In this document: positions 20,260 to 22,245 of the stretch, piece after piece
Layout: each line of letters begins with the position of its first letter
Position numbering within the stretch: position 1 is the stretch's first letter
Source: Aplysia californica
Lineage: Eukaryota
DNA: 64,000 bases
Assembly (NCBI RefSeq): GCF_000002075.1
Contig: NW_004797360.1
Coordinates: 67,790 to 131,789, forward strand
Direction: 5' to 3'
Made by a program: the position numbers and the translations under genes
The notes under the pieces: generated by a model
Seen by the model: the letters and a program-made list of their open reading frames with translations, nothing else
Told to the model about the DNA's origin: nothing
The model's database searches: none

Positions 20260-22245
20260 TTGTTGCTATTGTTATTATTGTTATTTTATTGTTGTTATTA
20301 TTATTAGTATAACATTATTATTTCACTACTACTATTGTTTTATTATTATTATCTTTGTTATCACCATCATCATCATATTCACCTTTATTCAGGTTTTACC
20401 TAAGTTAATAAAAGCTATGTAAAGTGGGACATATATTTAAGCCTATCCAGCTTAAATTTTGTTATTCTTTAACTCTTACTCAAGGTAGTTTCATGTAAGG
20501 TAAGGTTGGGTGGGGGTCACCAAGATAAGTCAGTACATGTGCATAATCTTAAATCAGGCTCTCTATACTGTGGTTCCATTCTCAGAACAGTTAATGCGCT
20601 TGGTCTCAGCAGCGTACTTGCAGGCCATACATTTTAACTGTCCCCAATAGTATGTAAAACCCTTAAGACATGACATACTGCACTTTAAAACGGGATGCAA
20701 ACCCTCAGATTTCTAAAAAAAAGCCTAGGTAGGCGTTTTATAATAATTTTTTTTTTTCATTTTGAAAGTCCTTTACTTCCGATCATTGGGCTGAGTTCTC
20801 CGATTTAGGAAATACAGTGTAACAGATCCTTACAGAACTCCTCCCCCCCCCCCTCTTTCTACTTTGACCCCATAAAGAAGACCCCCCCCCCACACACACA
20901 CACACACAGAAACACCATTCCCTCCCTTATCTATCTGACACATCAAATAATGTTACAAATAACTAGAAAGGAAGTGCATATATGCGTAGAATAAAGCTGA
21001 ATAAGTGTTTTATTTACTTAATCTAAATACAGGTGTTTTTACGCCCCTATCGATACAATTTAGATCATGTAGAAAGCAGGGCTCAACCTCGCACGCCTGT
21101 TTGTGCAGGGCCAACTCCGGCTAAGAGGAATACAAGAAAGACCGGGATATTCGATAATATATCACCCATCTCTGGAATGGAACTCGACTCTCATGCATGC
21201 AAGGGGGAAGAGCTTAACGATTACCCCACAGACGTCGATAACGTTTTCCCCAACACGTCCTTGCTTAAGTAGTGAAGGACTTCCAAACATTATTGTGTTT
21301 CACCTTTTCGTGTTCTAATATAAACTGAACTGATGAGAAGGGTGGAAGTTCGAGCATAAAGGGTTCTTTCTTTGCCCACTTCCTGTGAAAAACCAGCGTT
21401 CCCAGTTCCTTGCTCTGATGTTCAGGGAGCTGGGGTGTGGGGGGAGGGAGGGGTCGGGCAGAAGGTTGGAGAGGTAGGCACCACTATAAAGTAATATTAC
21501 TTATTATCTATACTCAGTAGGATCTTAATCTTAAACTCAAACACACTAAAAACGCAATTAACCTTCTTTGGGGCCTCTCTTGGTCTAGAGGTACGTGTTC
21601 GCCTCTCATTCAAGAGGCCCAAGATCAATCAGTGGCCTTAAAATCGATAAAACTAGGCTTCGGCCGCCACCTAGACAAAATTCAAAATTGATTCCTACCA
21701 CACTGTAACATTCTTAATGTGTCCTGCACGCTCATTTAACCATGTGCAGTTGCGACTGCCGTAAAATACTTATCAAAACAAACAAAAATAACCTTCTTTC
21801 CCCCTCAGCTCCAACAGTGGCTCTCGCCATAGTTCTCCTTGCTGGCTTCTCCATGGCCCAAGATCCCGCTCCAGCTGGACAAGGGCAAAACTGCAGAGCC
21901 GGGTGCCAGTTTTTCTGCGACACTATCGCCAAAGGATGTGTGGACGTACCCCCAGTGGTCACCTGTGCGTCCAACGTTGCAGCTTGCAGTGCCCAGTGTG
22001 ACTCGTCCTGCGATTGTTTCGAAGGATGCACTGCCAACTGTCAAAGCCTCCTTAGTCAGTGCCAAATGGGTGCTGGCAACCCGGTCCTCGGCATCCTCTG
22101 CAAGTCCCAGATCACTCTCTGTGTGTCTTCCTGCCCTGCCATCTGCGCCGGTCAGTCTATCATCTCCAACATCCAACAGCTCCTGCAGCAGTCTCTTGGT
22201 GGTTTGGTGAAGTCCCTGAATATTGGCTTGCCAGGTCTGCAATAA
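19973..22245 (+). CDS. Secreted cysteine-rich protein (149 aa, 16 Cys); exons 19973-19985 and 21809-22245
   Basis: ATGAACTATTTCA|GTGAGT joins in phase 1 to ccccctcag|CT..., giving signal peptide MNYFTPTVALAIVLLAGFSMA-QD; two 8-Cys repeats; GC-rich coding composition; stop TAA overlaps AATAAA. Exon 2 is strong; the exon 1 assignment is inferred. Confidence 0.85.
20098..20355. repeat. (AAT/ATT)n low-complexity tract in the intron of the Cys-rich gene
   Basis: Seen directly. Confidence 0.9.

What the first reader, a model, noticed from the sequence alone, without database searches (positions are those of the whole stretch)
21869..22146. Secreted protein with two tandem mirror-symmetric 8-cysteine units
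Seen: Cys spacing is C-3-C-3-C-6-C-(8)-C-6-C-3-C-3-C, one residue, then C-3-C-3-C-6-C-(12)-C-6-C-3-C-3-C. Each unit is palindromic in spacing, with i/i+4/i+7 helical periodicity. Inference: each unit is an antiparallel alpha-helical hairpin stapled by four nested disulfides (1-8, 2-7, 3-6, 4-5), and the protein arose by internal duplication. I do not recognise the family; candidates are a toxin, antimicrobial, pheromone or mucus/shell protein.
Basis: partly seen in the sequence, partly recalled or inferred. Interest (0 to 1): 0.75.

Follow-up and report, generated by a model that had tools for sequence, protein, structure and literature searches.

The report
Sea-hare 16-cysteine secreted protein family
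A real, spliced sea-hare gene encodes a small 16-cysteine protein with a predicted export signal, one of at least 15 genome copies with the same cysteine pattern; it is predicted to fold as disulfide-stapled helices and is likely a surface- or lipid-binding secretion of a family we could not find described.

Summary
The cysteine spacing is exactly as read. The stretch is exon 2 of a two-exon gene (149 aa, signal peptide), spliced in cDNA contigs. Its protein is identical to RefSeq 'uncharacterized protein LOC106011327', Aplysia californica. The genome holds 15 one-intron copies, all with the 16-Cys frame, nine in an 80-kb cluster, plus two divergent copies on C830 with introns inside the domain. 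Selection is purifying. Eight relatives come from one marine catalogue. Pfam, PDB sequence, Foldseek, VIA and the Atlas gave no meaningful match, and no paper named it. Two AlphaFold models (pLDDT about 73) are helical, but the two 'hairpins' share one long central helix, so this is one three-helix unit. Disulfide pairing was not measured. Internal duplication rests on Cys spacing alone. Best guess: a tissue- or stage-restricted secreted protein that binds lipid or surfaces; pheromone or toxin roles are less likely. Verdict: undescribed family, new variant of a known scaffold, function untested.

The parts
19877..19884 (+). TATA box, 33 nt upstream of the cDNA 5' end
   Evidence: sequence
19910..19985 (+). 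exon 1: 5' UTR, ATG at 19973, first 4 codons plus 1 nt (phase-1 donor)
   Evidence: cDNA contigs begin at 19910 (X15) and 19909 (X6), each with a loose non-genomic 5' end
19986..21808 (+). intron, 1,823 nt, GT..AG
   Evidence: joint 19985-21809 in X4, X13, X15 and X6
21809..22271 (+). exon 2: rest of the CDS (stop TAA 22243-22245) and short 3' UTR
   Evidence: A-rich loose 3' end at 22271 in X15
21809..21858 (+). rest of the predicted signal peptide; cleavage inferred before Gln22
   Evidence: hydropathy 2.9 over 11 residues; Gln follows the signal in 20 of 22 aligned rows
21892..22011 (+). Cys unit 1: C-3-C-3-C-6-C-8-C-6-C-3-C-3-C
   Evidence: helices 8-25 and 36 onward in the model
21940..21963 (+). 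conserved 8-residue loop xD[VLI]xP[LVF]xx, the likely binding site (inferred)
   Evidence: D in 20 of 22 rows, P in 19 of 22, position 30 aliphatic in 22 of 22; length 8 in 15 of 15 genome copies
22015..22146 (+). Cys unit 2: C-3-C-3-C-6-C-12-C-6-C-3-C-3-C; loop length 10-15 among copies
22147..22242 (+). Cys-free, nearly uncharged amphipathic tail, predicted helical at low confidence
   Evidence: hydrophobic moment 0.36-0.49 per residue in 15 of 15 copies; pLDDT 44-57
22241..22246 (+). AATAAA poly(A) signal overlapping the stop codon
   Evidence: cDNA 3' end 25 nt downstream

Best explanation
This spliced, expressed Aplysia gene belongs to a family of at least 15 copies with a fixed 16-cysteine frame, and its product is predicted to be exported, to fold as a three-helix rod likely stapled by eight disulfides, and likely to work by binding lipid or hydrophobic surfaces in a gland or epithelial secretion. 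Shown: gene structure, splicing, family size, invariant Cys spacing, purifying selection, absence from two poly(A) read sets. Predicted: helix 1 packs on the first half of a long central helix and helix 3 on its second half. Inferred: the signal is cut before Gln22, the Cys oxidise in the ER as two nested sets of four, and the rigid rod presents the conserved D-x-x-P hydrophobic loop and the neutral amphipathic tail to a membrane, lipid or mucus interface, as a protective coat or carrier protein.
For: Splicing and full-length cDNA. 15 of 15 genome matches keep all 16 Cys and all six flanking gaps per unit; 5 of 8 catalogue relatives keep the exact frame. The count is even and the spacing palindromic. 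Two models from paralogues 42% identical give the same helix layout, pLDDT 77-87 over the Cys core. dN/dS median 0.31 over 83 of 105 usable pairs. Loop 1 and aliphatic positions 76, 79, 87, 105, 108 are conserved. The tail is amphipathic in 15 of 15. pI is 4.1-5.7 in 14 of 20 rows and 6.6-8.2 in 6. No dibasic site after the signal in 6 of 7 checked.
Against: There is no direct functional evidence. Tissue is unknown because run labels are coded. Disulfides were not measured. pTM is only 0.54, the alignment has 22 rows (the same rows in both jobs, so the models are not independent), and the tail has pLDDT under 60; AlphaFold readily draws long helices. The conserved hydrophobic residues could simply be core, or a protein-protein interface. 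Without Cys codons dN/dS is 0.57 (0.20-1.27, 98 pairs), so constraint outside the frame is modest. The tail is short in some catalogue relatives (P0009, P0012) and in the C830 gene.
Confidence: 0.35

Rival explanations
1. A water-borne or paracrine signal (pheromone-like): the stapled rod presents the conserved loop to a receptor, and paralogues give distinct signals.
For: Small, secreted, likely stable, one conserved exposed motif, restricted expression. Aplysia uses small helical disulfide pheromones such as attractin (recalled; one search found no usable paper). A seawater-labelled RNA run holds an identical 151-nt piece (X7).
Against: No sequence match to any solved pheromone. The 16-Cys frame differs from the 6 Cys recalled for attractin. 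An orthologue cDNA occurs in a marine metatranscriptome (X6), which does not point to adult reproductive glands.
Confidence: 0.2
2. A defensive toxin or antimicrobial that works like neurotoxin B-IV, acrorhagin I or plant alpha-hairpinins.
For: Same predicted scaffold class: two helices cross-linked by four disulfides (PMC11722136, PMC6410017). Tandem gene cluster. The amphipathic tail could insert into membranes.
Against: Purifying, not diversifying, selection. Mostly acidic or neutral. No conserved Arg, Trp or His, whereas B-IV activity depends on Arg and Trp residues (PMC6410017 section 12). No propeptide cleavage site. No sequence or fold hit to these toxins.
Confidence: 0.17
3. A structural matrix protein (larval shell, egg string, or mucus gel) that polymerises through its tail or through disulfide exchange.
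For: Many near-identical tandem copies suggest dosage (L008, L011, L012). Relatives and an orthologue cDNA come from marine community RNA. Acidic members exist.
Against: No low-complexity repeats; an N-glycan site in only 1 of 20 rows; an even Cys count leaves no spare thiol.
Confidence: 0.15
4. A thiolate metal carrier like bacterial copper storage proteins: the Cys stay reduced and line a helical bundle.
For: Helical protein with CX3C repeats. Csp3 chains recur among weak Foldseek rows (E 1.2-3.4). Aplysia has a copper blood pigment (recalled).
Against: Those rows have TM about 0.25 and rmsd about 17 A. No Pfam match. No His. The secretory route is oxidising, and mirror spacing suits cross-helix disulfides.
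Confidence: 0.06
5. A protease inhibitor that uses loop 1 as a reactive loop, like trypsin-inhibiting alpha-hairpinins.
For: The fixed-length loop sits between stapled helices, as in hairpinin inhibitors (PMC7191063 passages).
Against: No Arg or Lys in loop 1 in any of 20 rows. The loop is conserved rather than hypervariable and is Pro-rich.
Confidence: 0.07

Closest known systems
Nemertean neurotoxin B-IV / beta-nemertides
   Same: Secreted helical hairpin, 8 Cys, four disulfides (PMC6410017 section 12; PMC11722136 passage). Each unit here is predicted to be similar.
   Different: B-IV is a single 55-residue hairpin whose activity depends on Arg and Trp. This protein is 128 aa mature, has 16 Cys on three helices plus a tail, lacks those residues, and gives no sequence or fold hit to it.
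Acrorhagin I and octocoral helical-hairpin peptides
   Same: Disulfide-stabilised helical hairpin with four disulfides (PMC11896702, PMC11722136 passages).
   Different: Single short hairpins, with His-dependent metal chelation proposed for acrorhagin. This family has 0-1 His and no detectable homology.
Plant alpha-hairpinins
   Same: Antiparallel helices with CX3C on each and nested 1-4/2-3 pairing (PMC7191063 passages).
   Different: Four Cys per module, cut from cassette or vicilin precursors. Here there are 8 Cys per unit, no cleavage site between units (one residue apart), and the host is an animal.
Gastropod orphan Cys-rich secreted proteins: CRASP and schistosomin
   Same: Gastropod, secreted, disulfide-rich, function unknown.
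   Different: CRASP has 10 Cys with other spacing and no Aplysia homologue by its authors' search (PMC4596865 passages). Schistosomin has 8 Cys paired 1-6, 2-5, 3-7, 4-8 in a mixed fold (PMC13440164 section 2.3).
FAM136A / twin-CX3C helical proteins; Csp copper storage proteins
   Same: Helices with CX3C repeats; weak rows in the Atlas (TM 0.50, under its bar) and Foldseek.
   Different: Not ER-secreted (recalled for FAM136A), different spacing, scores at background level.

Membership tests
Neurotoxin B / beta-nemertide | Helical hairpin with 8 Cys | tested here: met
   Per unit, by prediction only: 15 of 16 Cys lie in helices
Neurotoxin B / beta-nemertide | Sequence homology to solved members | tested here: not met
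   PDB sequence search: 1 chance row (E 0.71) with the protein, 0 with the profile, at E<=10; no Pfam family
Neurotoxin B / beta-nemertide | Single domain of about 55 aa with essential Arg and Trp | tested here: not met
   128-aa mature protein; no Trp or Tyr in the mature part; no conserved Arg
Neurotoxin B / beta-nemertide | Fold match to the solved structure | tested here: inconclusive
   Not among listed rows; single units were not folded alone
Neurotoxin B / beta-nemertide | Crustacean paralytic activity | not testable with these tools
   Needs an assay
Plant alpha-hairpinin | Four-Cys motif CX3C-Xn-CX3C per module | tested here: not met
   Eight Cys per unit with CX3CX3CX6C halves
Plant alpha-hairpinin | Nested disulfides across antiparallel helices | tested here: inconclusive
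   Spacing and helix layout fit; pairing not measured
Schistosomin | 8 Cys paired 1-6, 2-5, 3-7, 4-8, about 80 aa | tested here: not met
   16 Cys with other spacing; definition from PMC13440164 section 2.3
CRASP | 10 Cys with spacing C9C6C28C and C11C8C10C | tested here: not met
   against PMC4596865 passages
Copper storage proteins (Csp) | Four-helix bundle with Cys lining the core | tested here: inconclusive
   Only weak Foldseek rows, E>=1.2, TM about 0.25, rmsd about 17 A; no Pfam hit
Copper storage proteins (Csp) | Reduced thiolates binding Cu(I) | not testable with these tools
   Needs thiol titration and metal analysis
Aplysia attractin-type pheromones | 6-Cys frame and conserved attractin motif (recalled, no paper read) | tested here: not met
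   16 Cys and no PDB or Pfam sequence match

The most novel reading that the evidence does not exclude
An undescribed gastropod secreted-protein family with a new miniprotein architecture: two four-disulfide helical hairpins fused through one shared helix (eight nested disulfides), carrying an invariant D-x-x-P ligand loop and an amphipathic tail, and acting as a sea-hare chemical-defence or pheromone system with a specific molecular target.
Probability: 0.3. Interest if true: 0.7.

Novelty: new variant of a known kind. Interest (0 to 1): 0.42.

Why it matters
Aplysia is a long-studied model animal, yet this family of 15-17 conserved, expressed, secreted genes carries no name in the databases and papers searched. 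If the predicted fold holds, it extends the disulfide-stapled helical hairpin, known from worm and anemone toxins and plant defence peptides, to a fused eight-disulfide three-helix form. That would be a rigid scaffold with a swappable loop. The family is small and easy to express, so tissue, pairing and function are directly testable. Orphan Cys-rich secreted families are common in molluscs, which limits the surprise.

Tried and rejected
Artefact or chance ORF: rejected (splicing, paralogues, shuffles). Pfam: 0 families for the protein; 2 unrelated families hit 1 of 19 members each at E 0.03-0.04. PDB by sequence: nothing real. Foldseek: 0 matches at E<=0.001. VIA wide: best Z 8.0 (rmsd 7.7, 123 aligned; and rmsd 4.2, 96 aligned), generic helical bundles within the stated background; absence of a family there does not exclude it. 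A fold search of the second model did not run. ESM Atlas: no feature hit, structure rows under its bar. P0010 and P0013 from the representative search were dropped as spurious: they fail the family profile and are not family-like. Single-unit ancestor: 0 of 21 candidates of 30-70 aa scored; this word-based search also missed known members, so it is weak. Longer, multi-unit forms were not searched by profile. Tree of 19 rows (P0014, P0016, P0017 left out; C830 genes not included): 14 of 16 branches open, no conclusion. L011/L012 as an assembly duplicate: rejected, the shared region is only 89% identical. Homodimer prediction: tool not available, nothing folded, no verdict. Earlier scan findings: none. 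Papers: 0 hits for Aplysia + LOC106011327, Aplysia + '16 cysteine' + 'signal peptide' (51) and CX3CX3CX6C (61); listings showed no title or abstract on this family.

Full report
Observation. None of 1,000,000 composition-preserving shuffles of the core gave two palindromic halves; 1,206 gave one. No second copy lies in the window.

The gene. The ORF is exon 2. A TATA box lies at 19877. Exon 1 runs 19910-19985 with ATG at 19973, and a 1,823-nt GT..AG intron follows. Exon 2 runs 21809-22271, with AATAAA overlapping the stop. I laid 8 of the 24 listed runs. The exon joint stands in contigs of X4, X13 and X15 (3 of 4 runs) and of X6 (1 of 4). X15 has loose non-genomic ends at 19910 and 22271, as full-length cDNA would. 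Two raw poly(A) read sets of the same species label (X21, X22; about 1,500 million letters read each) have zero depth over the coding part of both exons, so expression is limited by tissue or stage; the tissue cannot be read from coded labels. The joined CDS equals P0003, labelled 'uncharacterized protein LOC106011327 [Aplysia californica]'. A signal peptide is inferred from hydropathy; SignalP was not available. Gln follows it in 20 of 22 aligned rows, which suggests a pyroglutamate N-terminus (inference).

The family. A search of the own genome scored 19 candidates and matched 15. A second query scored 21 and returned the same 15 plus one weak place; counts are lower bounds. All 15 have an open frame, a phase-1 acceptor in the signal peptide and the 16-Cys frame. 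Loop 1 is always 8 residues and loop 2 is 10-15. Nine lie in one orientation within 80 kb of contig C530. The weak place led to two divergent genes on C830 with introns inside the Cys domain. For one, three exons give 16 Cys with a gap of 5 instead of 6 before Cys 4; for the other only the middle exon was found, beside N runs. These introns are not at matching places in the two units.

Relatives elsewhere. The 1.84-billion-protein search gave 12 hits at E<=0.001: 5 match Aplysia copies, 5 come from the source 'merc', and 2 are spurious. With cluster members there are 8 'merc' proteins. Five keep the exact frame, one lacks the N-terminal part, one lacks one Cys, and one has two altered gaps. 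That 'merc' is a marine eukaryote plankton catalogue is recalled; the taxa are not given, so 'gastropod-wide' is an inference. A marine metatranscriptome holds a spliced orthologue with 16 differences in 421 nt. Of the 12 codons affected by rows shown, 6 are synonymous and no Cys is lost (the table was truncated). Organism B (X11) holds a piece with 7 differences in 207 nt.

Selection. Pairwise dN/dS over the Cys core and the start of the tail has median 0.31 (0.10-0.68; 83 of 105 pairs usable). Without Cys codons it is 0.57 (0.20-1.27; 98 pairs). This is constraint, not the hypervariability expected of conotoxin-like families (established knowledge).

Structure. AlphaFold2 with a 22-row alignment gave pLDDT 73.0 and pTM 0.54, with helices 8-25, 36-71, 75-90 and 92-121 and a short bridged loop between the first two. 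A paralogue 42% identical gave pLDDT 72.3 and helices 10-22, 32-67, 71-117; both jobs used the same rows. Fifteen of 16 Cys lie in helices. Nested partners have constant index sums (63 and 149), and the two innermost Cys of the central helix sit 200 degrees apart. The best reading is a Z-shaped three-helix unit in which the two hairpins share the central helix. The tail is modelled as helix at pLDDT under 60. Foldseek gave no match at E<=0.001. VIA's best Z was 8.0, on generic helical bundles. The Atlas gave no feature hit.

Duplication. Unit 1 against unit 2 at non-Cys columns scores at chance (p=0.44, 19 of 22 rows). The profile match falls from 88.8% to 0.5% when Cys are masked. No single-unit form was found (weak search). 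Duplication stays plausible but rests on Cys spacing alone.

Mechanism. Conserved features outside the Cys are loop 1 (Asp in 20 of 22, aliphatic in 22 of 22, Pro in 19 of 22), a few aliphatic positions, and an amphipathic, nearly uncharged tail. There is no conserved Arg, Trp or His, no dibasic site in 6 of 7 checked, and pI is acidic in 14 of 20 rows. I commit to a disulfide-locked secreted rod that binds lipid or hydrophobic interfaces through loop and tail (0.35). Rivals: pheromone-like signal 0.20, toxin or antimicrobial 0.17, matrix protein 0.15, protease inhibitor 0.07, Cu carrier 0.06. Every functional step is inference.

Comparison with known systems. By prediction it is built like the disulfide-stapled helical hairpins: neurotoxin B-IV (PMC6410017, passages and section 12 read), acrorhagin I (PMC11896702 and PMC11722136, passages) and alpha-hairpinins (PMC7191063, passages). 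It fails membership of B-IV and hairpinin families on Cys number, size, key residues or homology. It is not CRASP (PMC4596865, passages) or schistosomin (PMC13440164, abstract and section 2.3). Csp papers were seen as search listings only. Ten paper searches showed nothing naming this family. The library lacks most subscription journals and I read no supplements, where a transcriptome or proteome table could list these genes.

Verdict. This is an undescribed secreted family and a new variant of a known scaffold class, with function untested. Interest 0.42.

Noticed in passing
window 36457-39963 (-), with open frames at 43743-44291 and 33324-33764 (-): A 1,169-codon open frame, probably one very large exon of a neighbouring minus-strand gene. 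No Pfam hit for it or for 43743-44291; 33324-33764 has a weak BCCIP match (E 0.004, below cut-off).
   Followed up: partly
window 22681-22810; copies at 53784, 54575, 353, 57364, 26413 and others: High-copy short interspersed repeat, extremely deep in RNA runs, with many loose ends at its edges. Smaller repeats at 21030-21090 and 21631-21700 lie in the gene's intron.
   Followed up: partly
G000:C830 294451-298250 (+) and 310072-310236 (-); loci L032-L034: Two divergent family members on opposite strands with extra phase-0 introns inside the Cys domain, while the other 15 have only the signal-peptide intron. This could reflect intron loss or retroposition followed by expansion, or intron gain. 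Partial repeats of the exon-C acceptor region lie just upstream.
   Followed up: partly
G000:C530 452936-533303: Nine tandem same-strand copies. L011 and L012 are identical over the coding core while the wider shared region is 89% identical, which hints at gene conversion or very recent duplication.
   Followed up: partly
window 7469-7867 (-): Open frame that resembles the C-terminal end of an RTE-type non-LTR retrotransposon protein (recalled likeness; no Pfam hit).
   Followed up: no
window 22241-22246: The poly(A) signal overlaps the stop codon, giving a 3' UTR of only about 26 nt that ends just before a (GT)n microsatellite.
   Followed up: yes
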